From Amphiscolops sp. MND2022 (lineage: Eukaryota), in the NCBI GenBank assembly GCA_964187785.1, contig OZ076409.1, positions 24,430,001 through 24,494,000 of the forward strand: a stretch of DNA of 64,000 nucleotides, in the 5' to 3' direction. Position numbers and translations under genes: made by a program. The notes under the pieces were generated by a model, which made no database searches, had not been told where the DNA came from, and saw only the letters and a program-made list of their open reading frames with translations. Positions 6,884 through 51,866 of this stretch are shown piece after piece; position 1 is the stretch's first letter, and each line of letters starts with the position of its first letter.

Positions 6884-7397
6884 CCGCGACAGGTGAATTC
6901 CGGACGTTTCGGCAAAAACATGGCGGCGGACGTTTCGGCAAAAAAATATGCCGAAACGTCTCAGGCTAAAAATATTTGCCGAAACGTTTCGTATGATATG
7001 TGGTGCATATCCGGTGTATGCACGCTCGCCCTCACCGTCGCAAAGACCAGCTCCCACTACGATCGCTTCGCGATCTCCGTTCCCGCTATGTCTTTGCTCC
7101 TGTTCGACCTCGCTTAGCAAGAAGGGAATATAAGCGGCCTCAAGGGGCCGCGGGGCACTAAAGGAATGGGGACATATCCGAGGCACGTTTTATGCTTTGC
7201 ATCATTCCTACATTAATGGTCTTATCGTTTTTCTTTCAATTTTTTCTTCAATTCTAGAATTCTACAAACTGGACATAACCAGTTTGTAGAAAACCATAAC
7301 AAAACCAAGATGATACGAGACGTTTCGGCATAAAAAATTTGCCGAAACGTCTCGAAGTTTTTTTTTTTTGCCGAAACGTCCTGTTCCCGCGACAGGT
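6884..7397. mobile_element. Non-autonomous DNA transposon (MITE) with GGACGTTTCGGC/GCCGAAACGTCC subterminal repeats
   Basis: Clusters of GACGTTTCGGC and its reverse complement at both ends. CCGCGACAGGT is directly repeated at both flanks (candidate ~9-bp TSD, Mutator-like). Confidence 0.6.
7012..7178 (+). repeat. ~170-bp interspersed repeat, copy 1
   Basis: Near-identical inverted copy at ~8421-8592 and a partial direct copy at ~7474-7537. Contains the CGATCGCTTCGCGATC hairpin. Confidence 0.75.
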
Positions 7398-7658
7398 ACC
7401 TGTCAGTCAAGAAAAAATGTGTGGTATCAAGAGTTGTCTGTAGTATCGCACAAACAGGTACATGAAAGTATCATCGCTTAGCAAGATGGGAACATGAGCG
7501 GCCACAAGGGGCCGCGGGGCACTAGAGGAAATGGGACGGGTGGGCGGAAATAGGTCGAAGGAACGGAATCGAAAATCAGAGTTAGTCCTCAGGTCGACGC
7601 ACCACATTTTTGAATGGGGTCGAAACAACTCGGATCGAAATTTTTATAACGTAGTCAG

Positions 7659-8246
7659 ATATGTTCACAAACCCCTAGTGCCCTGAATGCAGGAGCGAAG
7701 CGAAGCGGAGCGACGTGCCATATGGCCATGCCTCAATGTTGCTACTTGGCGAAGGGAGCGAAGCGACCGAGCCATACAACAAACATGAACCTCTTCAAAT
7801 AAATCAAGTTCCATGCATATTCGCTGTAACAGCACTCATTTTGTTCCGTTTCGAAAATCGGCAGTTTCGTGTAGTTTTGAAAATCGGCTGTTTTGTCTCG
7901 TTTCAAAAATCGGCTGTTTTGTCCCGTTTTGCAAATCGGCTGTTTGGTCTCGCTTTGAAAATCGACTGTTTTGCCCCGCTCTAGTTTTTGATACTGATAC
8001 TCGAGAGAGAATATTTGAGGCCCGAAGCTAGTGTAAATCGAGGCCTGACAATTAGGTGACTACTAGTGTCAGATATTATATCAGCCGATATGTATTTACC
8101 TTATTTGAAGAGGTTAGCATATCGGGTGTATGGTTCCGTCGCTTCGCTCCCTTCGCCAAGTAGCAACATTGAGGAATGGCCATATGGCACGTCGCTCCGC
8201 TTCGTTTCGCTCCTGCATTTAGGGTACTAGGGGTATGTGAACATAT
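7659..8246. mobile_element. MITE/foldback element with ~117-bp terminal inverted repeats and an internal 26-bp tandem repeat
   Basis: ATATGTTCACAAACCCCTAGTGCCCTG...GCCATAC (7659-7776) is inverted at 8128-8246. ATAT (or TA) at both ends. About 5 copies of TTTGAAAATCGGCTGTTTTGTCYCG at ~7848-7978. Confidence 0.8.
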
Positions 8247-8420
8247 TTGGCCATTTAGTCTACAGGACATTTGGGCGACATTATTGTTGCCGAAATGGGC
8301 AGAAATTTTTGTCGCCCAAATGGCTGGTGACGAAACGTCCCTGCCCCTCGACGGACTTATGTCGAAGTAATTGCGTCGATGTCAATGCAAATGTAAAATG
8401 ATCAAACAATGTTTGGCCGT

Positions 8421-8592
8421 CGGAAATGCCCCATTTCCTCTAGTGCCCCATGGCCCCCTGGGGCCGCTTATGTTCCCATCTTGCTAAGCGAGGTCGAACA
8501 GGATCAAAGACCTAGCGGGAACGGAGATCGCGAAGCGATCGTAGTGGGAGCTGAGCTTTGCGATGGTGAGGGTGAGCGTGCATACACAGCAT
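8421..8592 (-). repeat. ~170-bp interspersed repeat, inverted copy
   Basis: Reverse complement of 7012-7178 with scattered substitutions. Confidence 0.75.
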
Positions 8593-9219
8593 ATGACCCC
8601 ATATTAGATGGCGGAAAACACCAAAAACATTATTGAACCTAAAATTTTAATTCGACCAAATTCGACAAGAGTTCGACTCAAAACTCTGGGCCCTAAGCTT
8701 GGATTTTGATGTTCATGGTGTCACTGCCTGATCCCGGTCTGGGATGTTGCTGCAAACGCAACGGAATTGGAATAGGACACAGCAACAGCCTGCGATTCCC
8801 CAAATGGTGTTTTAGTGCCTAATTGCAAACATTAGTACTCGCATTTCAACTAAATTGTGACTGAAAATATAAAATATACGTCTATGTTGCGCAAATCTTG
8901 AACAAAAATGAAAACAGGAAAATAAAGGGACGAAAATGACTTCACCCATTTCCGGCATGACGTTTTTGCCACATCGGAATAAAAACAATCACCACCTGAA
9001 AACTAAATTAAGATGCGCCTTGGAACAAAAGATCATAGAATAATCTGGATGGAAACATGTCCAAAATTCCCTATAAGAAAGAACTTCAATCAGATCTAAA
9101 ACAGAAAATACATTGAGATGACACACTGAGAATATTACGCCTCTTCTAAGAAAGACAGGTCAATTGCACTTTGAACAGCGAATAATGTGAATAAGGACGG
9201 TGGCTCGTCGCTAAATTAA

Positions 9220-9705
9220 AACAAAACGGGAACGTCTCAAGTCGGCGCTATATCTAAGGCTCAAAAAGCGCAAATTATTTTTTTGGAGAAAAACTTGAAT
9301 TTTTCGAAAAAAAATTCTTTCGGAAAATGTCGCTCAGTGCCGAAAATTGTAAAAGGGGGACCCTTTTTGATTTATAAACACGCATTCTGTAGCATAATAA
9401 CAAAAAACTCAAAGGGGGGACACTTTGGGGACAATTAAAAAGTTTCGAAAAAAAATCGCACAGTGCCGAAAAAAAAATCGAAAGGGGGGACCCTTCAGTC
9501 CCGTCCGGGCTTGTAGGTAACGTTTAAAAAGTAAAAAACCAAAGAGGGGATCCTTTGGAATAATTTACATGCGTTTCCCTGGTACTTAGCTTCCTTTAGT
9601 TGAACGTTAACGTTCGTCGCTTCGAGTCTGTCCTAAATAAAAAAAAAGAAAGAAACGAGTGACTGTAATAGTCGGGCTCTTTTCTTAAGATAAGCGCCGA
9701 CTAAA
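9220..9705 (+). mobile_element. Helentron-associated / DINE-1-like non-autonomous element inserted in the 5' LTR
   Basis: Absent from the 3' LTR. Starts AACAAAACGGGAACGTCTCAAGTCGGCGC and ends ATAGTCGGGC...GCGCCGACTAAAAA (subterminal IR plus terminal stem-loop). Inserted in an A-run without a TSD. Related copies at 18290, 51867 and ~53390 (minus). Confidence 0.75.
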
Positions 9706-11096
9706 AATAGGACTGTACATGCAAATATTACCATACTTGTGACGTCAGCAACGCATCACTAACTAGTCAGCTAACTAGGGGTATTCCAAATTCCTCATCG
9801 GCGTGACGTCACGAACTTGGCAGCTAGTCAGAATATCATTCCAAAATATGAGTCAGCAACTCGTCAAACTTGGCAGTTTGCCTAGATAGTTGAGAAAACT
9901 TGTCAACGCTACGTCGCAAATCCATCAAAATAACTGTTTTAGTCCATCAAAATCAATGAAACGAGTACTACCATGATGAATTTGATATAAAGAAAACGTT
10001 TAGAAAACGTCTCATGTAAAAAGAAAAATAGCAAAAAAAAATGTAGATTTACCTCAACATTTCGTCAAGCGAATTACAGTAAATCCGAATGTAAAACTAA
10101 CAGCGTATTAAAGTTCAGATTATATGGATTTTCTACACATTTCATGAATAGAAATGACAGCTTATAACTATAATTGAAACAAATTGAAAATATTTATTTT
10201 GTACTGAAAGCATACTTTTGGACAGTTTGTACCTTTGTACTCAGTTTTCAAAATATAAGACTAATAAGGTCATTTATGCTCAAATTGAAGCTAGAACGTC
10301 GTCGCCTAATTTGAAGCCAATCAGTCTGCAGGATGTAATCGCTGTTTTAAACCAAATTCGCAGAAAGGGGCTTATCAAATGCATAAAGCTAAAGCGTTTT
10401 CACACTCTCATTATTAATGTATACATCTCTTAAGGCTGAGGTTACGTGTTAAAAGTTTTATGGTTTCTGTTTCATTGACCAGTTGCAAAATCTTGACGTT
10501 GTGTTGACAAATAATACTCCTGCTTGAAAAGTATTGCTACTCAAATCATCTGTTGTCATCTTGCTGCTATTTAAAGTATTATTGCGTCTGAATATTAATT
10601 GGTGTTAATTTGTTATCAATTAATGTTCATTTTGGAATGTTATCATCCAGAAATGGGAATCTAAACTGATATAATTTAAATTTTCAGCTCATAAGCCAAT
10701 CCTTTTATGTCTCCTAGCATCTCTAAATATCCGTAGCGAAGGCAAGTTGTAACAATTTCTCAAGTTGAAATTCAAAATCAGGTATAAGTTGTTCACGCCA
10801 GCGTTAGATCCGCGTCAAATTTCCAACGAACCAATGCAGTAAAACGGGGAAATACTTCCGGTTTGACAGACTGAAGTAAAATCTACTTCCCTCGGAGGAA
10901 TCAAAAGGACGCCGGAATGAATGATATGATCATGGTTGATGACTAATGCTAGATTAAGTTTGTTGTGTGTTGAAGTTTGACAAATTGTCTACGCAAATTC
11001 GGGATCATATTGATTTTTTCATCAAAAAAAACAGGAAATGACTAATTGTTCGAGGAAAATTGGGGATATACTCGTGATCAAATGATGCTAGGAGGG

Positions 11097-11135
11097 TATA
11101 AATAGGAAAAGCTTTGATTCTAGAGAGACTTCAGT
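11097..11135 (+). promoter_or_regulatory. Putative LTR core promoter (TATA box and Inr-like TCAGT)
   Basis: TATAAATA at 11097 and TCAGT at 11131; conserved in the 3' LTR (TATAAAAA at 25525). Confidence 0.55.
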
Positions 11136-11258
11136 CTTCCTTCATTGCTAAAAATAGTTGCGCAATTTTCATCTTTGAAAAACGTTGTCTTCAACTTTGT
11201 TGAAACGAATATCTCAAAAGTAAATTCAAATTTTGAAATTGAGCCTTTTCATCCAAAA

Positions 11259-13557
11259 CTGTCTACAAAAAGAAGCCAAAAGAGAAAGAGCAATCAACAA
11301 GAGAGCACCGAGAGCGTAAGTGAAGGTTTAGTTTCACCAATAATAGTAAAAAATACTTGTCATCTGGACCAGGATGTAAGCGTTGCGGGGCCTTCTAGAT
11401 CAAAATCCCCCAGAATTGAAAATAGCCTTCTGGAGAGTTTGAGAACTTCTTTGAAGATGGAAATTACTTCCGAAATCAAGAGTCTTCTCGTGGAATCTCA
11501 AAACGAGATGTTGAAACTATTGAAACCTAAAATAGGAGAAAATGCCAGCGAGAACATTGAAGGGGAAACACAAAACGAAATGAGAAGTTTTTACACTCCT
11601 ACAAAATCTCTCAGGATAAATTCAACCCAAAGCGACCCGAACGAGAGTCGTAATATGGTGACAGGAATTTTAACCGACTCCACCAATCAACCTAAAAGAC
11701 CAAGAATAAGGAACCAAAGTCAACCAGCGTCCAAAGAACGTCCCATAGTAGCTACGACACTCTTTTTACCAGACAAAAACGACAACACTAGGCTGCCTAT
11801 GCCAAAAGCTCTAACAGCATCACTCCCAACCTTTGATGTGAAGTCTGACAACTTCGAGCTCTTCGAAGACCTTTTCCGCTATTGTATCAAGATGTATCCA
11901 CATTTCACGGAAATCCGAAAAAATTAAGGATTTCCACTCTCTACTCTGAGGAGACGCATTACAAGCGTCCTGTAATTTGAAAGACTCGAAAAAAGATTAG
12001 TTGAAACGAAATAATGACGATTTTTAAGCACCGCTTCGGAGACTATCTCTCAATGGCAAAAACCAGATGTGAATGGGATGCGCTCAAAATTGATCCCTCG
12101 ACTCAAAAGCTCCATGGATTTTTGGACGTCCTTCAGAAAACGGCAGAAGAAGCCTTTGGATCAGAAGCCCAACAATTTATAGAAAAGGCAATATACGCAA
12201 AATGTCTGACCAAGTTAAGACAATCCTCAACAGGGCATACCTTGAGGACAAACCATTTAACGACATCGTACTCCATTTGGAAAGAGAAATGAGGCTTAAC
12301 GGCCTCGGAGCGCCAGACGAGGTGACCCTCGTCCCTCTAAATAAAAAAGAACCGGCCCAACCCAAAACTGAAAAAATATCAGCAGAAAATGGTACACAGA
12401 ACACCAAAAAGGGATTTTGCTTCTATTGCAATAAATTCAGCTACTTCAAGGCTGAAACACTCCTACAAAATCTCTCAGGATAAATTCAACCCAAAGCGAC
12501 CCGAACGAGAGTCGTAACATGGTGACAGGAATTTTAACCGACTTCACCAATCAACCTAAAAGACCAAGAATAAGGAACCAAAGTCAACCAGCGTCCAAAG
12601 AACGTCCCATAGTAGCTAGGACAATCTTTGCACCAGACAAAAACGACAACACTAGGTTGTCTATGCCAAAAGCTCTAACAGCATCACTCCCAACCTTTGA
12701 TGTGAAGTCTGACAAATTCGAGCTCTTCGAAGACCTTTTCCGCTATATTATCAAGATGTATCCACATTTCACGGAAATCCGAAAAAATTGAGGATTTCCA
12801 CTCTCTACTCTGAGGAGACGCATTACAAGCGTCCTGTAATTTGAAAGACTCGAAAAAAGATTAGTTGAAACGAAAAAATGACGATTTTTAAGCACCGCTT
12901 CGGAGACTATCTCTCAATGGCAAAAGCCAGATGTGAATGGGATGCGCTCAAAATTGATCCCTTGACGCAAAAGCTCCATGGATTTTTGGACGTCCTTCAG
13001 AAAACGGCAGAAGAAGCCTTTGGATCAGAAACCCAACAATTTATAGAAACGGCAATATACGCAAAATGCCTGACCACGTTAAGAAAATCCTCAACAGGGC
13101 ATACCTTTAGGACAAACCATTTAACGACATCGTACTCCATTTGGAAAGAGAAATGAGGCTTAACGGCCTCGGAGCGCCAGACGAGGTGACCCTCGTCCCT
13201 CTAAATAAAAAAGAACCGGCCAAACCCAAAACTGAAAAAATACCAGCAGAAAATGGTTCACAGAACACCAAAAAGGGATTTTGCTTCTATTGCAATAAAT
13301 TCAGCTACTTCAAGGCTGAATGTCGCGAAATGAAGGGAGACAAGTGGCAACAGACCCGCAAAAGTAGCAGTCAACAACGACGCAGGCAATACGCTCAAAT
13401 GCGACACTTGCGGCGAACCACACAAAACGAAGATTGTCGGAATGGAGCCAACTCTGCCAACGATCCACGACCAAAGCGTCACAACCAACTGGAACGAAAG
13501 AGTCATAACCCCGTCCAACATACGACAACTAAAACCACCGACGAATCAAAAAACTAA
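11259..13557 (+). pseudogene. gag: Gypsy gag (frameshifted, internally duplicated); begins inside the 5' LTR
   Basis: LPTFDVKSDKFELFEDLF capsid-like segment, HLEREMRLNG, degenerate zinc knuckle CFYCNKFSYFKAEC, stop at 13555-13557. Homologous to the gag at 62158-63016. Confidence 0.85.
11656..11666 (+). promoter_or_regulatory. Primer-binding site TGGTGACAGGA
   Basis: Starts TGG directly after the LTR end. The same 11-mer recurs in the duplicated copy (12520) and in the second element (61954). It is one mismatch from a tRNA-Leu(CAG)-type PBS (inference). Confidence 0.75.
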
Positions 13558-16500
13558 TTACGCCGCGCCTGCGCTTCTAGGAAACAGTAGACGCGAGGGC
13601 GTATTCAAGAGAGGATACCCCACCATAGACAACGATAAAACGACAACGGAATGCAACGGAACACCAACAGAGGTCTGGCTAAGACGACAAGGAATCGCCA
13701 CTATAAAAAGACATAAAATCAAAAATATCCAACAAAAAGCATAACCAGAATGGATCAAAGATTCTGATGACAAATATAAGACGATCAAAAGACCACTCCC
13801 ACTGTCAAACCAAGAAATGGTCTACGTGTTCGACAAATACTACCGATGTGCTCCTTGGGACAGGCCAAACCTCTACAACCAAGCCTCTGTCACCTTTGAA
13901 GAACAGACCTCGGCACCACCAGTCGATAACGCAGACGCCCACAACGAACAACCACCGTCACAATAGACCAAGGAAGATACCACAAGCTCCACCACGACAT
14001 CTATCTTCCCAGACGACTTCCCCGTCTCACTCAATTCCATCAAAGAATACATGACAGAAAAAGATGGCGATACATACATTCCCCTACACTCAACCGTAGT
14101 CCTCAAAAAACGACAACGAATGCTATACTTCCCACTTGAATTCGGTGAAATGACTATGAATGGACGTGTCAACTCGGGAGCGTTCATCAACGCAATGTCC
14201 TGGTCCGATTACAATGCAATCAAAATGAACAGCAATAATTGCATCATTATGGAGTACCCTCAACCTCTTTTCAAAATTGAAAAAGCGAAAGCCTAGATGG
14301 AACAACCAATAGCCACAGCTGATATATAATTCAACATCGGAACGTATACTTTCACGGATACCTTTGTCATCCTCTCAAAGACGTCTTTTCCCATAATAGG
14401 GCTGAATTTCTTGCTAAATCATCAGGCGGTGCTGGACACAGCGAACGGAACCATCAATTTCCTACACGTAGAGATAACGTTGGCTATGACAGATGAAATG
14501 ACAAACTGCAGTCCTAAACCTCTCCAAATAATGACAGAAGGGAATCAAACATTGTTGCCCCAACAAACAACAACGGTGAATGCAGTAGTAGTCACCACCA
14601 ACGCAAACGAAGTCACAGGAGCGGTACAACCACTAACACAATTTGGTGAAAAGCCACCATCATTGTCGCTCCAGCGCTAGCAACAGCTCACAACAAGGGA
14701 ATAAACATCAGATTAGCCAACCTGACGGATTTCTCCCACTAAATAAAAAACCACACAAAACTGGCGGAACTCCCAAATTCTCAAACCAGAGGATACAAAA
14801 CAAATACGACCCATCGACTCTGCTGCACTAAAACTGTTGCAAGATCTTGATGACACACACATGTGCGGAAATGAACTCATGAAGTCCAACAAAAACGATC
14901 AAAACGACGAGAATTTCTGGCTCCCCACACCTGAAAACCTGAAATGAAGAAGAACAAACACCAATCCAACGACGGATAAAAAAAGAATTCCGTGATTTCA
15001 TCAAAAAAGAGCAAACAACCCAACAAAAGACCAAGATTCACGAAAAGAATTCCTGGATATGTTCCACTAGGAAGCATCCCAAATGGAAGGCAATGACAGC
15101 TAGGACAAACTATTGTTGAATACAATGACATATTTGCGCGTCACAGACTCGACATGGGTATGAATGACAGCTTCAAAGTGAAACGAACGCCGAAGGACGA
15201 GCGTCCAATCTACACGCAAAGCCTACAGGTATCAATCAACTTGAAAGAAGACCTAACAGTCGAATTAGCGCTAATGCACAGGTACGGCATCATAACAACG
15301 CTGCCATTCTCAAAGTATGCACGTCCAATTTTCGCACAACACAAACCAAATGGAAAATTGCGAATACTTGTCGAGTTGCAAAAATCAACGCGCTAACCTC
15401 GGACGATTACATCAACAACAATCATCCAGTCAGCACCCTGTCAGGCGCAGCGCAACACCTAGCTGGGAAGAAACTAATTTGCAAACTAGACTGCTCACAG
15501 GCATATCACTGCTTGCAAACGGCAGACCAAAGGTCAATCGAAATGCTAGCTTTCAACTTCGCAAGCAGGACGTTCGCCTACAAACGACTGTCACAAGGAC
15601 TGAGCAGAGTATTATCGGTATTCTCAAGTTTCATGAGGGAGCATTCAGACAAAATGATCACAGCCGACCAATGTGCGCAAATGTGGATGATATTGGAATA
15701 GCCGCCAACTCAGTCGCGCAATTGATACGCAACATACGCGCAGTCTTTGAATGCATCAGTCAAGCGGGACTTAAACTAACAACTGAGAAATGCCATTTCG
15801 GAGTGACTGAAGTCGAATTTCTTGGGAGCAATATTACACTAGAAGGCAATTTTGCATCACCCCCCAGAACTACAAAATTCAAAAATTTTTAACAAACGTA
15901 AGATTCCCGAAATCGAAGAAGCAAGTACAAAGATATATAGGCTTTGTCAACTATTACCCAAATACATCCCGCGGCTGTCAGAAAAATTCCTCGTTTTTTA
16001 CGAACTCCTTAAAGCAGATAAACAAATCAAGGTAACAGAAGAGTTACTAGACAACTAGAAAGCGATCAACGCAGCACTAACGGAAGCATGCGGATTGGCT
16101 CTCAAACAACCAATCACAGGACGCCAATACGTCCTAATGACTCATGCCAGCATCCGCGCCTCAGGATATGCACTAATGATCGAAGAAGACAACGATAAAA
16201 AACTCAATTCCAAAAAGAAAACTTTCGACCCTGTGGCCTTTGGATCAAACGTGTTTTCCCCAGCCCAACTGAAAATGTCAATTTATTGCAAAGAACTCTT
16301 GGCGATATACCACGCATTCCTACAATACAGCCATATACTGTGGGAAACAACTCTACTTACACTGGTGAAAGAGTCGAACTAAAAATCCGAAACTACATCA
16401 TGATCCGACCAAGACAAGTCAATCTACAATCAACAGATGTCGCAGACGAAGAACAATTTTTCTTCCTTCCGGAAGAAACTATCGAAACCGAGGAAGAAAT

Positions 16501-18870
16501 CCTGCAAAAAAGGAACAAGCAAGACAAAATGCGCGCGACGAAGAGATGACAAGAATAAAACTGTCTATCAAAGAAACGACCCCAATTCCAATAAACATAG
16601 CATCATACACCTATGGGGCAATAAAAGAAGACGCACGTTTCAGAGTTGAACAAGACACAGATATGGTCTTCGAAGCAATCAAAAAGAAACTGATATGTGG
16701 AGATTATGACAAACACCTTCTACAGACGGACCCGAATGTAAAGCGCCTACTAGTCCACGAAAATAGACTGATAGTCAAGGACGGCTTACTGATGAGGAAG
16801 TACTATGGGGATTGTGGACAAGTCACTCATCATCAGATATTAATCCCCGAACACCTAATTACGGAACTCCTAGGAGCAATCCACGGTCAAATGGGAAAAC
16901 ACCCAGGAATCACCAAAATGATCCAAGAATGCAGATCAAAATACTACCATCGCAGACTAGCCAAAAGAATCAAACAATGGGTACTGAAATGTGAGGTCTG
17001 CTTTAAATACACAGAAAACAGCAGCAGTCAAATCAGGACAAAAATGATCAACAATACGGAACACGTCTTGGGACCGGAAGATATCCTAGAGATTGACATA
17101 TTACCGAATCTACCACAAATTCTGCTGGATACCAAAACATTGTAACAATGATTGACGTAATTTCACGCTATCTATGCGCATATCCAACGCAGGATGCAAC
17201 AGCAAAACCAATTGGACGATGCATTGTTGACGTCATGACAAGACATGCAAATTTACCAACATTAATCCTATCAGATAAAGGCTCACAGTTCCGATCAGAA
17301 GTTGTCGCAGGAATAAGACAGACACTAGAAATTCAAATCAGCCACGCGTCTACGAAACACGCACAAACGATCAGAATTTTGGAAAGAACACACGCTTCTA
17401 TCAAGACTGCTCTAAAAATATCGACAGGAGAAAGACGTTCAATGTGGCATAAATACGTCCAAATTGCAGTCATGAACTACAATACAACGTATCATGAGAC
17501 GCTAGGTTGCGAACCATCCACAGTATTCCATGGACGATCACACTACAACGTCATTGACCTAAATTGGGCATCAAACCAAAATGGAAAACTACGCCCAACC
17601 TAGATATAGCAGAACAACTACAAAAACAAATTGACGAGGTACGCGCGACAGCAAAAGGCAAAATCATGCTGTCTTACCTCAAATACAAAAAATACTACCA
17701 CCGCAAGGGGTCTGCAGCCCCGCTTAAAATAAATGACTATTGCGAAATTCTCAATCCTAAAGCCAACAAACAATCGACAAACTTCGCATTCCAAGACCGC
17801 ATCTAGATGGGACCGTATAAAGTGATAAAGGTTCTATCAAACAATATTTACACAAAACGGAAAATTGGCACGAGATATACACAAACACTACACAGAATAC
17901 GTATAGACCCGTACGTGCCAGAACAACGCTTACCCGACGTCACAGTACGAGCCATTGAATATGTTCCAGGCCCGCACAACGAATGGTACGCAGCTTCTTG
18001 GGAAAAAGATTTCGGAAAACAGATGGACGAACACGAAACATCAGAAATTGCAAACAACAACCAAGAATCTGTAACACAAAAAATATTGGACACGAATGAC
18101 AAAAAAACGGTGCAAAAAGAAACAGAGAATCAAAGCGAAGATACGAATGACGTGACACCGTCGTCACCAGATTTCTCAAATCTTACCACGGACGTGGTGG
18201 ACAACTCATATATACGACGTCCCCACCCACTGAAAGTCCACCTATTCCCCCAAAATCTCCGCCCACAGTTGTCGGATATAATAAAAAAAAACAAGACGAG
18301 AACGTCTAAAGTCGGCGCTATAACTAAGGCTCAAAAAGCGCAAAACATTTTTTTCGAAAAAACGTGAAATTTTCGAAAAAAACTTGAAATTTTCGAGAAA
18401 AAAAAATTTTGAGGAAAATATCACACTGTGCAGAAAAAATCAAAAGGGGGACCCTTTAGCCTCGGACGGTTTTGTAGATTACGTTAAGAAAGTACGAAAT
18501 GAAAGCGGGGACCCTTTGGAGACAAAAAATTTTCGAAACAAAGTCGCACAGTGCCAAAAAAATCAAAAAAATCGAAAGGGGGGACTCCGTAGTCCCGTCC
18601 GGTTTTGTAGGTTACCTTGAAAAAGATTTACACTAAATTTGTTTTGGCCTCTTTGCCGGACTGGGCGCCTTGGGTGGTTTCAGGATTGTTTCTAAAAAGT
18701 GGACCGATCAGTGTGAGTCTGAAGAAAAAAAAAACAGTCACTGCCAAAGTCGGGTATTTTTCCCGAAAGGAAAAGCGCGGACTAAAAACAGTAAATTATA
18801 CCTTGTGACCTAATTCCAAACCTAATGCTGATCCTGACTTCAGGCGACTTGACGCCATGACTACGACTCA
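13548..18870 (+). pseudogene. pol: Gypsy pol remnant: protease, reverse transcriptase, RNase H, integrase
   Basis: Protease (GRVNSGA, degenerate DSGA) ~14150. RT PIFAQHKPNGKLRIL, LSQGLS and (Y)VDDIGI ~15680. RNase H VLMTHAS...CKELLAIY, with the C-terminal half apparently deleted near 16370. Integrase HGQMGKHPG...CEVC, SDKGSQF, LERTHASIK and GPY. Many stops and frameshifts. Confidence 0.92.
18290..18787 (+). mobile_element. Helentron-associated / DINE-1-like element inserted in the integrase C-terminus
   Basis: AACAAGACGAGAACGTCTAAAGTCGGCGC ... AAAGTCGGG...GCGCGGACTAAAAA; same family as 9220-9705. Confidence 0.72.
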
Positions 18871-19099
18871 CTAAAGAAAAGATAATCATCAGGAGTCCAA
18901 ATCGAACCGATTTAACAACTTCAATTACAGACATACTGCGGATTTTTGGATTTGTTTTTTCTCTTTTCTAACTCCGGGAAATTACAAATCTTTTTTAATG
19001 GAGTTTTTCTTAACATTTTCTCAAACGATTTATCGAAACTCAAGAACAAAGTAACTACAATAACAAACCGACAATAGTTTGAAACAACAAAACAGAAAA

Positions 19100-22000
19100 T
19101 GTTACTGAACTGATTCTTTTTTGAACTGCCTCCAGCCTTCTTACTGCCTCCGGCTCCACGGTTAAATGTTTTCTGTTTACTACTTGACGGTTCCACGTCC
19201 TCCTCATGCTTCTTCCGTCCCAACAGCGACGCATGTTTTCTCTTTTCGACATGATCGACATTGCTCTCAACATTGGCAGATGTATCACCAAAGACACTCG
19301 AAGAAGCACTCTCAGCACACGTCGCTGTCGACAACTCAGCATCACTTGTGGAACGTGATTTAGCATCACGAAGTTGTTGATACGAGCTTTTGTTCTTCCG
19401 AGCAAGATGAGCGGTAAACATCTCCATATAACGATTCTCAAACGCACTTTGCTCGGCACTGCAAATATTGACCCAAGGATCAAATGAAGTTTTGCTCATT
19501 AAAATCTGTGAATTAGCTATGGCATCACGGACGCACTCATTAGTGTGTTTTGTAGAAAAAGCACTCTGCTTATAATTTGACGCAGCGATACAACTGTGGA
19601 TACCTCGAACACACGACGTCACAACCAGTTCAGGGACTACACAATCAGACAAGTGCCTGGGTTCATGGCTCCAAACAACACAACTTGAGAACTCGGCACA
19701 AAGTCTTGCGCGAGAGGAAATTATAATCCGCCAGCAGAAATTCCACAACATTTTTGATCCCCTCAACACTACGTCCACTACTGACATGACGAGCTCGCAC
19801 GTCAACGACGTACGTTACAAACTCTTCAACAGCTGCCTTGAACTCCAAATCAGACAGAGCTCCGCTTCTTTCCAAAACACGAACAAGCTTGTTGAACAAA
19901 CTAAAGACGCAGTCATCATCTCCTTCCAGCAACAACTCAGGACAGAAGCTGTACAGGCCTTGTAACAAGCTAGCTGATACAAGTTGACAAGACAAGATTG
20001 ACACAACGAGACGATCCACAAATTCTGGACACTGACTGAGAAACTCTCGCGCTTCCCCTCCCTTGCTCGCTTTCAACACTTCTCCGAACTCGCAACTTTG
20101 CAAGAAAAAAGTCACATTGATTTTCTCAAAGGCAGCAAGCTTGGACAGGTCCATGTACTCCTCCCATGCATTCAACTCCAGCAGGGATGACACGCTACGA
20201 CTCCGTGACAACAGACAGTAAACTAGGCTGCACAATTCTATATCAAAGTGGAAATGGTAGTCACTACGCCCAGATTGCTGCTTCTTGACGCTTACTGCAT
20301 CTAAAACATCGCAACGACATCATACGTGAGGACAACGACAACCTAAAGAGCAAACTCACTCATAGCTACATATGATGACGAAACAACAACGAATAATACT
20401 TAGAAAGATCTAGAATGTGGAGCAGCAGACCCAAACGCAGTTCATTAGTGCCATCCGAGTACACGAGCCAATCTGTCCTGCTCATCTACAAAACAAACCG
20501 AGTCAACAAAATTTATGGAGAGATGACAAATGACGTACACAAACTCGATATACAAAAATCAGAGAAGTCAAAAAATTATTACCCTATCAGCATCACACTT
20601 CACATGACGTGGGCAACTGAAACGGACGAATTCACGCACTGAGTTTCAGATGGGAAGCAGCTCTGACACAACTCCGCGAAGATCATGGAACGTCACATGA
20701 CCGGCAACAACACAACGACGAAGAATGGGGCAATCCACCATACTCGTCACTTCGAGGCCACCAAAGACAGCTTCGTGGGCTTCCTGAAAACGCTGCAGGA
20801 TTATCTTCTCAGGAAATGTTCGGCATACAATAAATTGGCACCCATCAACTCGATTGTCGTTCAACACTCGCACAAGAGTGGGGCTCCCGTTTTGACATGG
20901 CAACGGCAACTGACAAGTACTATTGCAAACTGCCCACATTCCGCGAGAGACCAGCCAATTTTGCACGAGGGACACGGTGTCCAGCCACTTCCACTCGGAT
21001 ACACACATTAAGCAGTGAATCCTTGTCCCAAGTCTGAACAAAACAGCCTATGAAATCTGCCTCCTCATCGAAGAACACACTGTAAACACGATAGGCGGAG
21101 ATGCGGGCACCAGAAGTCGTAATGCTCGTGGGAAAAGAGCGCGGCAGATCAAAGCGTGAAACACAAAATGATGCTCAACACTCAAACCGCAAAAACATGA
21201 AAGAAAATAAACAACAGCGATCTTTTCACACCCAAAACAAGCTCACCAATGATTCGGTCCGACTCCAGTTGAGGCTGAACAAAGGATTCTCAGGGCCCAA
21301 TGTAGCACGGAAGCACCCCCATAACTTGCGCAATAGAATATAGCTGCCCCCAAAACGAAGCAACTCCAGTATACAATTCACCATCGTCAACAAGGTGATC
21401 GTCGAAACTACGCGGGTACATGCAGGCAACAAATCTTCTGGGAAATTGAACCCTCAGAGAGACCCTTACACGGACGAGATCGGAAATCAGCGATCTGTTC
21501 AGCAGACAGTTCCATCGGGTCCATTGGTCTGTTGAAGAGGGGCAGCCTTTCACGATGACGGTATGTAACATCTGCGTACCAGTGTCGCTCACCAAAGTAG
21601 TGCCGGCTGAGCTCTTCTGCTCCTCGAGTGCGCATTGAAACGTCGCGGTAACAAATGCGACAAACGAACTTCTCGTTAGAGACAGTACTTGAACCACTCA
21701 CAAACAGAGAGTACACGGGATGATCACCAACCATCTCACGACGAGGACGATTACGGGCGCTGTATATCTGGTTGGGCTGACGACTTGCAAGAGACACCCC
21801 TTCCAAACTCTGCTCCATACGCTATACAAGCTTTTGAAAGTCTACATCAGAAACAATATCATAAAAAACAGCACAACAGCGGATATGCTACCGTTCAGCG
21901 AAGCCACAACGACACAAATACTCACTGGCAACGAAGGGCTCTATCGTCTGATTGTCAACTTCTAAAGTCATAGGCTCTCTCACTCTCAGAGCATGGCGGT

Positions 22001-22974
22001 AACTGCTGGCCTGAGCCACATTGCGAACCTCGTCAGAATCAGTGCTTACAAAATACAGCAACCAATAAATAGAAAACCAGCATGGGGAAGGAAAGTAGCA
22101 AAACTAAAAAGTTGTACGTACTGTCAAGTTCGAAGTGAAGAGCCTGAGGACGTAACCCAGGGCGATTTTTTGTGAGGCGTTTTGTTGACGTCGGACCAGA
22201 CACACTCTTTCCAGGCTGCAAAGACCATGCTACAAAACACCAATCCTCAAACCATCTATCTTTAATCTCCCTCCACAAATAAAATACAAACAACCTACTG
22301 CCTTTCACGTTGGGGGAGGCGACACGACTACTAAGTCCAAAATCATGCAGGAAGGAGGAAAACGTTGACGAACTCACCGCCCCACTATGCCCACCAGCCT
22401 GCGCAACAACTCCTGATGCCTTTGCATTTCCTCCAGGACCGGGGGAAAGATCCTCGCATCCGCAAGTAAAAAGCGCTGCAAGAATGGAAGGATCAGGAAT
22501 TCCAGATAGATCGGGAATGGCAAACAAGTCAGACAAAGAATATCGAGCTCATCTGCCTGAGAAGCGATAGTGTCTGGCGCAGGCGAAACCCTCCCAGTAG
22601 GGGCCGCAGCTGAAGAACCCACGTCAGGGGAAGGAAAGACAGCACCAACAGGAGGGGCAGAGGAAGTAATGTCGGCGGTTGCGGCAACTGGCACAGAAGA
22701 AGAACTTGGAGCAAGCACTAAAACAAACCCCAACTTCGACGCGTCAAGAAAATCTAAGCTGTGGAAATACTGCTACAGGAAAGGCCTAATCGTTGAGAGT
22801 TTATTTCACAAAAGCTTAATGGAAAGCGGGGATAAAATGCCTACAAAGGCTGGCAGGTTGATGAGTTTCAGCGTCACTATCACGCACATCTCCCACCGAA
22901 AAGAGAAACTGCGTCTCGTGACCACTTTAAATGCCAGGATCAACAACTGGGAGGGCGTCAGGACGTGTGTTCAT
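19100..22974 (-). pseudogene. Antisense, multi-exon accessory gene of the Gypsy element; zinc finger plus hAT-transposase-like protein (now disrupted)
   Basis: Minus-strand exons at about 22974-22847, 22718-22299, 22229-22122, 22044-21926, 21841-21247, 21155-20583, 20485-20400 and 20300-19100, separated by 69-130 nt GT..AG introns (two acceptors appear mutated). Motifs CRIC-x14-RHYFGERH, LNWSRTESL|ALIC, YSVFFDEEADFIGCFVQTWD, LYSFCPELL and AAVEEFVTY...LCRVLKLCCL. Confidence 0.7.
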
Positions 22975-23028
22975 CAGAAAGAGCAAAGAATCTGAAAACA
23001 AACAATATAGAAGGAAAACGCCCGAAAA

Positions 23029-23279
23029 TGACGTCATCAAACCGGTGACAAGCTAAAGTTGATTAACCATGAACAAAAATGACGTCGGCAAAATGTCGAC
23101 AAAAATGTTATTAGGATTAAAAATTAATTTTATAATCTACAATGATGTCATCAAAACGGTGACAGACTAAAAAATTGGCTAAACTAACGAAATTGAAGTC
23201 AGCAAAACGTTGACAAATTGGTTAGGCGAATTATTTAAGTTGCAGCCAATAAAAATGCGACGTTGGCAAAACGCCAACA
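23029..23279 (+). repeat. Array of five 22-bp motifs, each a 6-bp hairpin with an AAA(A/C)(C/T) loop
   Basis: Copies at 23029, 23080, 23143, 23194 and 23258 (spacing 51/63/51/64), with compensatory stem changes. Confidence 0.75.
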
Positions 23280-23365
23280 CCTGGGATCATAAAAGGAATA
23301 AAAATGATTGATTACTAAATCAAAATGGAGTGGTTTATCCCAACGTTTTCCTTAATCCTAACTAA

Positions 23366-23851
23366 TACGAAATTCATTGTGAAACATTCAACAGTGCAAA
23401 CCAACAACTCGACAATTTACAGTCGGACGGAAGCCTAAGCTCAGAGATATTCATAGTAGAATATGCCGCCCACGAAGAATCAACGACTAGCACTAGAGTC
23501 CTAGAACATCTAGAGCAAGTTCAACAAGAGGACTCCAATTCGTATTTTGTTACCCCTCCTGGTACACCAAGAAGAAGAAGCATCCAACCAATAAGCCCCC
23601 TGAACGACCTGGAGGATAGGAGAGATAAAGCAGTATCTGCATCCACCAGTGAATCTGTGCCTCAGCTGTCGCTACAGCCCAGACAACCCGGCAAAGGCGT
23701 TCTCCCAGAAAAGTGGCGCTGTCACAGCCCGCTCCCGGTCTGGGACATTGCTGCAAACGCATCGGAATCGGGGGAGGACACGGCTTCAGCCTGCGATTCC
23801 CCAAACGGTATTTTTAAAATATTAACTTCAAACATTAGTACTCGCATTTAA
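23366..23851 (+). CDS. Putative extra sense ORF crossing the PPT into the 3' LTR (unknown function)
   Basis: Stop-free frame of 161 codons (YEIHCETF...VTPPGTPRRRS...EKWRCHSPLPVWDIAANA...STRI). No in-frame ATG; a CAAAATGG start at 23325 is in another frame. Confidence 0.35.
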   Translation, partial: YEIHCETFNSANQQLDNLQSDGSLSSEIFIVEYAAHEESTTSTRVLEHLEQVQQEDSNSYFVTPPGTPRRRSIQPISPLNDLEDRRDKAVSASTSESVPQLSLQPRQPGKGVLPEKWRCHSPLPVWDIAANASESGEDTASACDSPNGIFKILTSNISTRI

Positions 23852-26083
23852 AATGAACTGTGACTGAAAATAGAAAATATACGTCTATGTTGTGCAGATC
23901 TCAAACGAAAATGAAAACAGGAAATTGAAGGGACCAAAATGATTTCATCCATTTCCGGCATGACGTTTTTGCCACGTAGTAATAAAAACATTCACCGCCT
24001 GAAAACTAAATTAAGATGCGTCTTGGAATAAAAGATTATATAGTATTCTAGATGGAAACATATCCAAAATTCCCTATAAGGAAGAACATCAATCAGATCT
24101 AAAACAGAAAATACATTGAGATGACACACTGAGGATATTACGACTCTTCTAAAAAGACAGCTTAATTGCACTTTGAACAGCGATTAATAAGAAACAGGAC
24201 GGTGGCTTGTCGCAAAAAAATAAATTAGACAGTACATGCAAATATTACCATACTTGTGACGTCACCAACGCGTCACTGACTAATCAGCTAACTGGGAGTA
24301 TTCCAAATTACTCGTAGGCGTGACGTCAACAACTTGGCAGCTAGTCAGAATTTCATTCCAAAATATGAGTCAGCAACTCGTCAAACTTGGCAGACTGCCT
24401 AGCTAGTTGAGAAAACTTGTCAACGCTACTTCGCAAATCCATCAAACTAGCTGTTTTAGTCCACCAAAATCAATGAAATGAGTACTACTGTGATGAATTA
24501 AATATAAAGAAAACGTTTAGAATACGTCTCATGTAAAAAGAAAAATAGCAAAAAAAAATTGTTGATTTACGTCAACATTTCGTCAAGCAAATTACAATAA
24601 ATCTGAATGACAAACTAACAGCGTATTAAAGGTCAGAATTTACGGATTTTCTACACATTTCTTGAATAGAAGCCACAGCCTATAACTATAATTGAATGAA
24701 ATTGAATGTATTTTGTACTGAAAGCATATTTTTGGACAGTTTGTACCTTTGTACCCAGTCAGTCTGTAGGATGTAATTGCTATTTTAAACCAAATTCGCA
24801 GAAAGGGGCTAATCAAATGCATTTAGCTAAAGCGTTTTCACGCTCTCGTTATTAATGTATACATCTCCTAATGCTGAGGTTACGTGTTAAAAGTTTTATG
24901 GTTTCTGTTTCATTGACCAGTTGCAAAATATTGACGTTGTGTTGACAAATAATACTCCTGCTTGAAAAGTATTGCTACTCAAATCATTTGTTGTCATCTT
25001 GCTGCTATTTAAAGTATTATTGCATCCAAATAATAATTGGTGTTAATTTGTTATCAATTAATGTTCATTTTGGAATGTTATCAGCCAGAAATGGGAATCT
25101 AAACTGAAATAATTTCAATTTTCAGCTCATAAGCCAATCCTTTTTTTGTCTCTTATCATCTCTAAATATCCGTAGCGAAGGCAATTTGTAACAATTTCTC
25201 AAGTTGAAATTCAAAATCAGGTATTAGTTGTTCATGCCAGCGTTAGATCCGCGTCAAATTTCCAACGACCCGATGCAGTAAAACGGGAAAATACTTCCGG
25301 TTTGACTGACTGAAGTAAAATCTACTTCCCTCGGAGGCATCAAAAGGACGCCGGATTGAATGATATGATCATGGTTGATGACTAATGCTAAATTAAGTTT
25401 GTTGTGTGTTAAAATTTGACAAATTGTCTACGCAAATTCGAGATCATATTGATTTTTTCATCAAAAAAACAGGAAATGACTAATTGGTCGGGAATATACT
25501 CGTGATCCAATGATGCTAGGAGGGTATAAAAAGGAAAAGCTTTGATTTTAGACAGACTTCAGTCTTTCTTCGTTGCTAAAACTAGTTGCGCAATTTTCAT
25601 CTTTGAAAAACTTTGTCTTCAACTTTGTTGAAACGAATATCTCAAAAGTAAATTCAAACTTTGAAATTGAGCCTTTTCATCCAAAACTGTCTACAACAAG
25701 AAGCCAAAAGAGAAAGAGCAATCAACAAGAGAGCACCGAGAGCGTAAGTGAAGGTTTAGTTTCACCAATAATAGTAGAAAATACTTGTCATCTGGACCAG
25801 GATGTAAGCGTTGCGGGGCCTTCTAGATCAAAATCCCCCAGAATTGAAAATAGCCTTTTGGAGAGTTTGAGAACTTCTTTGAAGATGGAAATCACTTCCG
25901 AAATCAAGAGTCTTCTCGTGGAATCTCAAAAAGAAATGTTGAAACTATATAAACCTAAAATAGGTGAAAATGTCAGAGAGAACATTGAAGAGGAAACACA
26001 GAACGAAGTGAGGAGTCTTTACACTCCTACAAAATCTCTCAGCATAAATTCAACCCAAAACGACCCGAACGAGAGTCGTAACA
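23720..26083 (+). repeat. 3' LTR (2364 bp), carrying an open copy of the gag N-terminus (25687-26083)
   Basis: TGTCAC...CGTAACA; direct repeat of 8719-11655. ORF 25573..26088 mirrors 11145..11655. Confidence 0.92.
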
Positions 26084-27229
26084 CATAAGGTTTTTGGCAG
26101 AGGGTAACTTCATGGGGTAACTCCATCGCCCTTACTCGATAAAAGCTACTTTTAACGGACTAAAAAGAAGGTGCTGGTAAGTTTCGAAAATCTTCGAGAA
26201 CTTGCTGATAAGTAGTTTTCATTGTTTGTGTTGGATTTTTTTGGAAATTTTCTTTTTCATAACATCTTTCAAAACAAATAATCTGCTTTTTCTTCTTCAA
26301 CTTCGTGATCTTTTGTGAAGTCGAGGAAATTTCAAAATATTTGTCAAATTTCGGTTCATAAACCAGTTTCGCACCGCATTTGTGCACAATATTTAAGTAA
26401 ACAATGTTTTTGTGTTTTTTTTGTTGATTTTGTAACAATGCGTATTTAACCCAAACCCCCCCCCCCGGGGAATGAATAAATTCGAAATTGGTTTTTTCGA
26501 AATCACTATCCATTATTTACAAACTGGTGTTTGTTTTAAAATTAGCAAAAGTGACCTTTTTTATGTTGTTCATGCTTTCTTGTCAATTTTGGCGCCGGAA
26601 ATCAAAATCAACCAATTGACACTGGAAATCAACCAATAGGAACGCGTTCAAAATACTCAAATTTTATTGGCTGGCTGAAATTTAAATTTCGGCACGATGA
26701 ATAGCTTGGAAACTTTCGACGCTTTGACTATTCGACGCTTTGGGAATCCGCCAGATTGATTGTTGGACATTTGTAAAAGTTTCTCCTTTTTGATCAACGT
26801 TTGTCTTTAAGCATTTTAGATGCATTTTCCAATTGTATATTTTTCTTGTTTAGAACGATTATCTTTAATTGAATTCTCGTTTCATCTCGATTTTTTACTC
26901 AATTCCGATACTGCATGATCACAAAGTAGTTCAAGTTATCAAATCAAAATCTCTACTTTCATCATCTACTTTCAAACATTCAAAGTTCGAAGTTTCGGTC
27001 ACTTTTCTATTTTTATTTGATGTTTATACAGCCAATGCATTTCTGCACATTCACGTTTTTCAATTTGTGCTGCTCACGTTTGTTTCTTTACCATCGTTAT
27101 TACAAATTTATACTCAATACACTTTAGTTACTACGTCTTAGCGAGCGAGTCATTTTACTTCAATTTATTTTTAATGTTTTTTTTGAGCTCATCCGTTTCA
27201 CCATCAATAATTAAACTAATCTGAAAAAA

Positions 27230-50899: not shown

Positions 50900-51723
50900 T
50901 TACCATAAAACTCAACACAAGAAAACTCAACACACGAAAACTCAACACATTTTAAACATTTATTAATCGTGATATACACCGTTTCAACGTTGACTGAAGC
51001 ACATCAGATACTAAATGAACAACCAGTAGAAATTGATAAGCTTGATACAGCAAATCTCATTTAATATGAACGAAATCGTAGCTTGAATGAACGAACGCCG
51101 CATACGATTTTGTGTACATGTAGAATTCTTTGGTCAGCGTTTGTTAAATTTGAAAGCGTCGTTGGTGATTCTTATTTGCTAACTCACTTGGATGCTGATA
51201 TTGTTCACTTGATTTTTGATTGTAAAGCACTTTTAGTTTGGTTGCCGGTGATTGGCTGAAAATTTGGAACGAAAGACGAGACGATTCACTTAACATCTTA
51301 TATGCTTCACTCAACGCGGAAACGGTGAATATTATACATCTATATTCCTTTTTTCTAAAATATTTGTGTTTGCGTTTACACTTTTTCTATCGTTTTGTTT
51401 CATGGTTTGGGCCAATGTAAACAACGTTTCAACAAGAAAACAGTTTAATATTGGAAAAAGCCACAATCATGACTAGGTGTAAAGGAAATTATACGTCTTT
51501 ATATGTCTTTGAAATGAGTCGCAACTGTGACCAAGTGTAAACGGAAATAATCCGGATTTAACAAATAGTTAGATTTCGGAAAACAGACTCAATTGAGGTG
51601 TTAACTAAAATTAAATAAATGTGTTGAAATGTGTTTGAGTTTTTGTGTTGAGTTTTCTGTGTTGAGTTTTCTTGTGTTGAGTTTTCTTGTGTTGAGTTTT
51701 CATGTGTTGAGTTTTCCGTACCC
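50900..51723. mobile_element. MITE with tandem AAAACTCAACAC subterminal repeats in inverted orientation
   Basis: Three AAAACTCAACAC at ~50907-50948 and about 5 GTGTTGAGTTTT at ~51645-51715. Confidence 0.6.
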
Positions 51724-51866
51724 CAAGGTTTCAGTTCGAGAAATTATCTTACAGCAATGAGGGACGCGCATTTTTTAGAAGCACAGTGGAATGGTGGCAG
51801 TATTTTCCCAGCTACAGGAACGTTTTTAAACTTTCATTCAGTTTCGCTGAAGTAAATGTTTTATTG

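What the first reader, a model, noticed from the sequence alone, without database searches (positions are those of the whole stretch)
23029..23279. Five regularly spaced RNA hairpins with compensatory base changes, strand-specific to the genomic RNA
Seen: GTCAT-C-AAACC-G-GTGAC, GTCGG-C-AAAAT-G-TCGAC, GTCAT-C-AAAAC-G-GTGAC, GTCAG-C-AAAAC-G-TTGAC and GTTGG-C-AAAAC-G-CCAAC, at spacings of 51/63/51/64 nt. The stem sequence varies but all six pairs are kept (A-T to G-C, C-G to T-A swaps). The imperfect positions are G-U wobbles that work only on the plus strand. The array sits between the start of the antisense gene and the extra sense ORF. Inference: a selected RNA structure array (packaging, export/localisation or translation element, or a protein-binding platform) rather than a neutral repeat.
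Basis: partly seen in the sequence, partly recalled or inferred. Interest (0 to 1): 0.72.

Follow-up and report, generated by a model that had tools for sequence, protein, structure and literature searches.

The report
Docking-site array doubling as RNA hairpins
A jumping gene carries a conserved cluster of five short two-part DNA motifs that also recur across its own family and differ in a distant family, likely docking sites for the disarmed transposase it encodes backwards, and the same stretch is predicted to fold into a chain of hairpins in its RNA.

Summary
The five hairpins are real and conserved in a Ty3/gypsy LTR family (1,160 exact 22-mer matches genome-wide, 0 in control). They alternate with five variable hairpins, fold better on the plus strand (10 G·U-majority, 0 A·C-majority of 87 pairs), and persist in a non-coding derivative family (at least 146 copies). 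But the conserved unpaired letters form a DNA dyad, RCGY-N7-RCG (11-bp period). It is also enriched, without hairpins, in the LTRs and gag-pol of this family and of sister families that lack the array. A distant family carries a different dyad (GCCG-N4-CGGC). The array lies where sister families have a promoter-like interval between the antisense gene and a sense ORF. A relative of the antisense protein folds like Hermes hAT transposase; the scan noted that cargo before on other DNA, and my look-ups showed no note on the dyad. Best reading: a cluster of cognate binding sites for the element's disarmed transposase (VANC/TnpA-like) at an internal bidirectional promoter, with an added RNA-structure role in this clade. 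Binding, transcription starts and RNA function are untested, and tree-aware covariation is not significant per pair.

The parts
23029..23049 (+). Unit A1: dyad (first half-site at 23031; second half-site altered in this copy) and 6-bp hairpin 23033-23049
23058..23074 (+). Hairpin B1 (degraded in this copy; 5-bp stem, 6-7-nt loop in the family)
23080..23100 (+). Unit A2: dyad (second CpG decayed here) and hairpin 23084-23100
23106..23137 (+). Hairpin B2 (14-bp stem with bulge in the family, 2-4-nt loop)
23143..23163 (+). Unit A3: dyad (first CpG decayed here) and hairpin 23147-23163
23174..23188 (+). Hairpin B3 (loop 3-5 nt; U-A/U·G/C-G series at pair 2 in the family)
23194..23214 (+). Unit A4: dyad (first half-site altered here) and hairpin 23198-23214
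23218..23250 (+). Hairpin B4; its 3' arm holds a CCAAT box (23246-23250) that resembles the CCAAT box of sister families
23259..23278 (+). Unit A5: intact dyad at 23260 and hairpin 23262-23278
23295..23360 (+). B5 multi-stem region; second CCAAT box in 36 of 45 copies (altered here); contains the non-conserved ATG at 23325
22972..23000 (-). Splice-acceptor-like pyrimidine tract + CAG (22992-22994; in 36 of 45 copies) and the probable first ATG of the antisense gene (22974-22972); inferred
18924..22974 (-). Broken, intron-containing antisense gene; family related to hAT transposases (C2H2/BED-like finger, Hermes-like fold in a relative)
23366..23848 (+). Remnant of the conserved S/E-rich sense ORF; its start is deleted in this copy
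23720..26083 (+). 3' LTR; dispersed dyads at 23963, 24259, 24513, 25240
8719..11655 (+). 5' LTR (with a ~490-nt insertion); dyads at 8878, 9996, 10801
11656..18280 (+). Broken gag-pol (RT, RNase H, integrase order of Ty3/gypsy) with 13 dispersed dyads

Best explanation
The array is a conserved cluster of five copies of a two-CpG DNA dyad that also recurs across the element's LTRs and gag-pol; it likely serves as docking sites for the element's own disarmed hAT-type transposase at a probable internal bidirectional promoter, and is predicted to fold as a hairpin chain in the genomic RNA. Shown: the dyad and its element-wide enrichment, a different dyad in a distant family, gain and loss of units, retention in non-coding derivatives, plus-strand folding bias, and a Hermes-like predicted fold for the antisense protein family. 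Inferred: (1) the antisense protein binds the dyad as a dimer, with two half-sites one helical turn apart; (2) binding at the cluster regulates the antisense gene and the sense ORF, and with the LTR sites activates or protects cognate copies, non-autonomous ones included; (3) because both accessory transcripts would start at the edges of the array, mainly the full-length RNA would carry the hairpins, which would suit a packaging or export mark added in this clade.
For: Dyad at period 11: 24 vs 1.7 at other spacings in 6 array-family LTRs, 15 vs 1.6 in 5 sister LTRs, 14 vs 2.4 and 7 vs 1.2 in gag-pol; 1 vs 0.9 in the antisense gene body, 1 vs 1.0 in the distant family, 6 vs 4.0 in other window DNA. 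Only 2 of 39 LTR sites pair at 5-6 of 6 positions, so the dyad exists without the hairpin. An unbiased trimer-pair scan ranks it first in both clades and finds GCCG-N4-CGGC in the distant family, confirmed on 2 held-out loci. Cross-count in the gag-pol-side stretch: 10 clade-1 loci have 6-13 dyad-11 and 0 GCCG; 6 distant loci have 0-2 and 2-6. Sister families show TGACGTCA, CCAAT and CCGGAA motifs and the same flanking genes at this interval. Antisense family: window piece 57% to P0001, alignment A1 to P0194 probability 99.7, P0274 52% to P0194, model pLDDT 85, top 10 Foldseek hits all Hermes, Z 14.0, rmsd 5.3 over 391 residues, next unrelated row Z 5.5. RNA side: 10 G·U-majority and 0 A·C-majority of 87 pairs; 53 double changes vs 17.5 permuted (B stems 48 vs 16); A·C cells 114 vs 153 expected; loop lengths vary; plus strand folds better in 15 of 15 copies tested (mean z -5.9 vs -3.4), sister intervals z -0.3 to -1.7. 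A non-coding family (146 matches; internal domain 1.25-1.46 kb in 19 of 20 loci) keeps the array in 20 of 20 loci and adds separate dyad sites and separate AUAAC-loop hairpins of other stem sequence (245 WC, 47 G·U, 0 A·C of 295 cells).
Against: No binding, transcript or probing data. Only three lineages were compared, and pol diverges along with the antisense protein, so the binder could be a host factor, integrase or Gag. The third (intronless) lineage gives only a weak, non-CpG candidate dyad. Loci within a set are homologous, so z-values are inflated, and the dyad was first spotted by eye. The folded protein is a 22%-identical relative, not this family's own. Tree-aware tests of the best pairs are not significant (p 0.125 at best); only 2 predicted pairs rank in the top 40 of 64,980 column pairs. 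Rare variants show no G·U over A·C excess (96 vs 110 cells). A5 pair 3 is C·A in 13 of 45 copies. Covariation within A stems is weak (5 vs 1.5 double changes). Sister families have no array (0 of 11 loci), so it is not a universal packaging signal. CpG transitions between the window's LTRs are only 22/173 vs 71/742 elsewhere, little support for a methylation-defence role.
Confidence: 0.42

Rival explanations
1. The dyad is bound by a host transcription factor (GMEB/DEAF1-type SAND protein or a bZIP), so the array is an enhancer/promoter cluster that does not depend on the element's own protein; the RNA hairpins may or may not be selected as well.
For: [quoted passage not shown] TGACGTCA is present in A1, A3, A4 (30, 38, 37 of 45), and CCAAT and ETS-like motifs flank the interval.
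Against: GMEB/DEAF1 spacing is described as variable but here it is fixed. The dyad is not enriched in other window DNA, is spread through pol, and is replaced by another palindrome in a lineage with a 22%-identical antisense protein.
Confidence: 0.25
2. DNA only: a cluster of cognate protein-binding sites whose hairpins are by-products of near-palindromic half-sites, tandem duplication of a ~26-nt monomer and template-switch correction during reverse transcription.
For: Each arm starts in an ACGT half-site, so R5·T2 wobble pairs arise for free. B1/B3 look like decayed monomers (L046). No per-pair significance on the tree and no strand bias in rare variants.
Against: B stems lack the dyad yet keep pairing with 48 vs 16 double changes. 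B3 pair 2 goes U-A 27, U·G 5, C-G 10, C·A 0 and B4 middle pair 3 has no C·A. Five of the ten G·U-majority pairs are in B stems. The derivative family adds dyad-free AUAAC hairpins.
Confidence: 0.15
3. RNA only: a packaging, export or translation element on the genomic RNA, read by Gag or the antisense protein; the conserved flank and loop letters are RNA contacts.
For: Plus-strand folding bias, covariation in B stems, retention and extension in non-coding derivatives, block conserved like pol (72-82% vs 61-71% for most of the antisense body).
Against: The same flank and loop letters recur as an unpaired, strand-symmetric dyad in LTRs, pol and array-less sister families. The interval is promoter-like in sisters, and sisters have amplified without the array (61 matches, most at 95-100%).
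Confidence: 0.14
4. Neutral tandem repeat carried along by an abundant retrotransposon.
For: Unit number varies from 3 to 9 among 87 arrays; 3' tandem repeats of unknown function are common in plant Retand elements (PMC11963269, passages).
Against: Unit positions are mostly 40-45 of 45 conserved in copies of 81% median identity, and the array is kept when about 90% of the internal domain is lost.
Confidence: 0.04

Closest known systems
VANC/VANDAL sequence-specific anti-silencing system of Arabidopsis (PMC5735166; abstract and section 9 read)
   Same: A TE-encoded accessory protein with cognate short motifs that pile up in tandem repeats, gain and lose units quickly, and differ between related families.
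   Different: VANDALs are plant Mutator-like DNA transposons with shown binding and demethylation. Here the host element is an LTR retrotransposon, the protein is hAT-derived, the motif is a spaced CpG dyad also spread through pol, and binding is untested.
Spm TnpA and transposase-derived regulators (bioRxiv 10.64898/2026.08.24.746577; abstract and section 8 read)
   Same: Transposases act as sequence-specific activators of cognate copies, and derived regulators recurrently lose catalytic residues.
   Different: The parts read cover DNA transposons and host-domesticated genes, not capture by a retrotransposon; they mention no RNA structure overlay.
Plant Retand/Grande antisense ORFs with 3' tandem repeats (PMC11963269, PMC7264820; passages read)
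   Same: Long pol-to-3'LTR region, antisense gene with a transposase-related, predicted DNA-binding domain, own internal promoter (Grande gene23), family-specific repeat arrays, non-autonomous members.
   Different: The passages read call the repeats' origin and function unknown and give no link to a protein-binding motif or to hairpins ('hairpin' and 'secondary structure' occur 0 times in the Retand paper).
Hermes hAT transposase BED domains on subterminal repeats (PMC10368747; passages read)
   Same: Short 4-bp sites, repeated, bound cooperatively in quasi-palindromic pairs by a zinc finger of a hAT fold.
   Different: The Hermes site is AAG(T/C) at DNA-transposon ends and serves excision; here the finger is C2H2-like and did not reach the Pfam zf-BED cut-off (best E 0.013 in a relative).
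Retroviral cis RNA elements: psi, CTE, RRE/RxRE (recalled, no call)
   Same: Plus-strand hairpins in a non-coding 3' internal region, kept by non-autonomous derivatives.
   Different: No Rfam match; ten small tandem hairpins overlaid on a DNA motif; absent from sister families; function untested.

Membership tests
Ty3/gypsy LTR retrotransposon (host element) | RT, RNase H, integrase in that order between direct LTRs with TG...CA ends and a PBS-like site | tested here: met
Ty3/gypsy LTR retrotransposon (host element) | Target-site duplication around this copy | tested here: inconclusive
   No match seen at the ends I assigned; LTRs 87-94% identical
VANC/TnpA-type cognate-site system | Element-encoded accessory protein with a DNA-binding or transposase ancestry | tested here: met
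   Hermes-like fold of relative P0274, Z 14.0; link to the window
VANC/TnpA-type cognate-site system | Short motif enriched in the element and amplified in tandem with gain and loss | tested here: met
VANC/TnpA-type cognate-site system | Motif changes between lineages with different regulators | tested here: inconclusive
   Two lineages have distinct dyads, the third only a weak candidate; pol co-diverges
VANC/TnpA-type cognate-site system | The protein binds the motif and activates or demethylates cognate copies | not testable with these tools
   No binding or methylation data; CpG decay only about 1.3-fold
bZIP (CRE) site array | TGACGTCA conserved in every unit | tested here: not met
   A2 2 of 45, A5 0 of 45
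GMEB/DEAF1 site | Two CpG half-sites with variable spacing | tested here: inconclusive
   Spacing lies within the GMEB range but is fixed here
Retroelement packaging/export RNA signal | Conserved plus-strand secondary structure | tested here: met
   (aggregate support; not significant per pair on the tree)
Retroelement packaging/export RNA signal | Kept in non-autonomous derivatives | tested here: met
   20 of 20 sampled loci of one derivative family
Retroelement packaging/export RNA signal | Shared by close relatives (integrase about 70% identical) | tested here: not met
   0 of 11 sister loci and 0 of 10 distant loci carry the array
Retroelement packaging/export RNA signal | Required for packaging or export | not testable with these tools
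   no functional data
IRES for the downstream ORF | Always coupled to a downstream ORF with a conserved start | tested here: not met
   Derivatives without the ORF keep the array; the adjacent ATG varies
Catalogued RNA family (Rfam) | Match at gathering score | tested here: not met
   3 chance-level hits, E 0.68-5.4

The most novel reading that the evidence does not exclude
An LTR retrotransposon lineage runs a lock-and-key self-recognition circuit: a captured, disarmed hAT transposase binds a lineage-specific palindrome written throughout the element, and in one clade the densest cluster of these sites doubles as a hairpin code that marks the genomic RNA for packaging or export and is exploited by non-coding parasites.
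Probability: 0.3. Interest if true: 0.9.

Novelty: new variant of a known kind. Interest (0 to 1): 0.72.

Why it matters
Antisense accessory genes and 3' repeat arrays of gypsy elements have been described for decades with function unknown. This gives a concrete, testable link: a candidate protein, a candidate site, and a second lineage with a different site as a built-in specificity control. It would extend VANC/TnpA-type self-regulation from plant DNA transposons to an LTR retrotransposon that borrowed a DNA transposase. It would also be a clean case of one sequence coding for a DNA-binding platform and an RNA structure.

Tried and rejected
RNA runs: no RNA holder listed. Rfam: nothing. The 22-mer in metagenome contigs: 0. 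Pfam on antisense pieces: no family at cut-off. ESM Atlas: leads under 0.9 only, several in hAT/ZBED families. NFI site (TTGGC-N5-GCCAA, recalled) fits A5 in this copy, but the G-C pair it needs is in only 4 of 45 copies: rejected. RFX X-box (recalled) does not fit the 3' arms: rejected. A splice donor inside B1 on the minus strand was considered; the letters vary among copies, left open. Long-range pairing 125-131/387-393 in the alignment fold was dropped as unsupported. MI ranking was dominated by subfamily structure. Dropped rows: of 87 distinct arrays, 58 fitted the five-unit layout and 45 remained after removing copies at 95% identity or more; 3 derivative copies were left out for B5; 2 of 8 sister loci had no anchor. 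Many loci were found through an exact A1/A3 pattern, which biases A1/A3 conservation upward. Literature searches listed no paper whose title or abstract start describes this array or dyad; the library lacks most subscription journals, and no supplements were opened. One search was not followed up.

Full report
OBSERVATION. The five 17-nt stem-loops are at 23033, 23084, 23147, 23198 and 23262, as described. The region folds far better than shuffles on the plus strand (z -4.77) and not on the minus strand (z -0.64). No Rfam family matches.

CONTEXT. The array lies in a broken Ty3/gypsy retrotransposon: LTRs at about 8719-11655 and 23720-26083, RT-RNase H-integrase order. To its left begins an intron-containing antisense gene; an acceptor-like site lies 19-42 nt from A1 in 36 of 45 copies. 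To its right lies an S/E-rich sense ORF whose conserved start is deleted in this copy. The family is large: 1,160 exact matches to one 22-mer versus 0 for the control. Of 120 loci held at that point, 87 distinct arrays had 3-9 units, 55 of them five. The block is about as conserved as pol (72-82% vs 71-81%) and more than most of the antisense coding body (mostly 61-71%).

RNA EVIDENCE. I compared 45 copies under 95% identity (median identity 81% among the 58 aligned), with stem arms located by sequence, not by pairing. Of 87 pairs, 77 are WC-majority, 10 G·U-majority and none A·C-majority. Double changes number 53 versus 17.5 under permutation (B 48 vs 16, A 5 vs 1.5), and A·C cells 114 versus 153; this control ignores relatedness. 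B loops vary in length. The plus strand folds better in 15 of 15 copies tested, whereas the matching interval of six sister loci is unstructured. Against: rare variants are not biased to G·U (96 vs 110), A5 has a C·A in 13 of 45 copies, only two pairs rank in the top 40 by mutual information, and independent-pair tests go the right way for the two best pairs (3.6 and 4.0 vs 0) without reaching significance.

NON-CODING DERIVATIVES. A family marked by a different right flank has 146 exact matches. Of 20 sampled loci, 19 gave an internal domain of 1,247-1,459 nt; the longest ORF per locus was 58-122 aa, and all 20 keep the array. Eighteen add repeats that hold, side by side, a dyad site and a hairpin of different stem sequence with the same AUAAC loop (245 WC, 47 G·U, 3 other, 0 A·C; these copies are near-identical, so not independent). 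The array is therefore likely needed in cis without the ORFs, which argues against an IRES or a mere promoter for the cargo genes.

DNA EVIDENCE. Sister families (antisense protein 36-50% identical, integrase about 70%) have no array in 0 of 11 loci. The same interval there holds TGACGTCA, CCAAT and CCGGAA motifs between the same two genes, which I read as a bidirectional promoter (motif names recalled; inference). TGACGTCA itself is not the conserved unit (A2 2 of 45, A5 0 of 45). The conserved unpaired letters of each A unit form two RCGY-type half-sites 11 bp apart. This dyad is intact in 174 of 225 units and the hairpin in 169 of 225; in the window copy four of five dyads have one altered half-site, which is why it is hard to see there. 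The dyad is enriched at period 11 in LTRs (24 vs 1.7; sisters 15 vs 1.6) and gag-pol (14 vs 2.4; 7 vs 1.2). It is not enriched in the antisense body, the distant family or other window DNA, and its LTR copies do not form hairpins. An unbiased scan recovers it as the top signal in both clades and finds another palindrome, GCCG-N4-CGGC, in the distant family. That second dyad is confirmed in two held-out loci, and the two dyads are near mutually exclusive across 16 loci. A third lineage gave only a weak candidate.

CANDIDATE BINDER. The window's antisense piece is 57% identical to P0001. The alignment of that family matches the full-length P0194 (probability 99.7), and P0274 (52% to P0194) gives a confident model (pLDDT 85). 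Its best matches are all Hermes hAT transposase (Foldseek E 2.5e-5; Z 14.0, rmsd 5.3, 391 aligned). I saw no acidic residue at the end of the first RNase H strand where hAT enzymes have the catalytic aspartate (motif recalled); earlier scan notes on other DNA report the same loss. Hermes BED fingers bind short repeated 4-bp sites cooperatively in palindromic pairs (PMC10368747, passages).

MECHANISM. Most likely (0.42) the antisense protein binds the dyad across the element and densely at this cluster, regulating cognate copies as VANC and TnpA do (PMC5735166, abstract and section 9; bioRxiv 10.64898/2026.08.24.746577, abstract and section 8). In this clade the cluster grew by tandem duplication of a roughly 26-nt monomer and likely gained a second role as a hairpin chain on the genomic RNA. 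Binding, promoter activity and RNA function are inferred. Rivals: host factor (0.25; GMEB spacing range fits, PMC4274154 passages), DNA only with incidental hairpins (0.15), RNA only (0.14), neutral (0.04). CpG decay between the window's LTRs is weak, so I do not claim defence against methylation.

KNOWN SYSTEMS AND NOVELTY. The architecture parallels plant Retand/Grande elements, whose antisense ORFs and repeat arrays are described as of unknown function (PMC11963269, PMC7264820; passages). It works like a VANC/TnpA cognate-site system, but membership is not shown. It meets two marks of a packaging/export signal and fails one. My paper searches and scan look-ups showed no description of this array or dyad; the disarmed transposase cargo was already noted by the scan. 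Verdict: a real, selected, probably dual-coded element; new variant of a known kind; interest 0.72.

Noticed in passing
L201-L204, L225, L226, L156, L158, L161: A distant LTR family with a 22%-identical antisense protein carries its own dispersed palindrome GCCG-N4-CGGC.
   Followed up: partly
L211-L220: A lineage with an intronless antisense gene (about 860 aa) shows a weak candidate dyad TGG-N7-CCA.
   Followed up: partly
L068:8600-9935 and L171-L190: Non-coding derivative family (146 pattern matches) keeps a ~135-nt piece of pol, the antisense exon-1 side and an extended array.
   Followed up: partly
window 23366-23848; L062:4596-5360: Conserved acidic S/E-rich sense ORF running into the 3' LTR; its start motif was found in 20 of 30 loci (my reading) and in sister families; no Pfam family.
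   Followed up: partly
window 25552-26085 and 11601-11924: Gag reading frame begins inside the LTR and crosses the PBS-like site.
   Followed up: no
window 11593-12756: An 864-nt tandem duplication of the LTR end, PBS and gag start in this copy.
   Followed up: no
window 9212-9700, 18282-18770, 51861-52380, 53070-53400: A ~490-nt repeat family inserted twice into this element and present elsewhere in the window.
   Followed up: no
window 46151-48400: Inverted, about 75% identical LTR of the same family, probably solo.
   Followed up: no
L205 and L206 (3' LTR), L068:7322: A perfect 6-bp A-like hairpin with an AUGAC loop inside some LTRs.
   Followed up: no
G000:C149 12946-56156: Four copies of the element in tandem at a 13.77-kb period.
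   Followed up: no
L080:1-5100: ORFs that look like a Polinton/Maverick (integrase- and capsid-like, judged by eye) upstream of an array-bearing fragment.
   Followed up: no
window 7006-8595, 50902-51715, 60035-60356: Long nested inverted repeats and short tandem arrays, probably other transposons.
   Followed up: no
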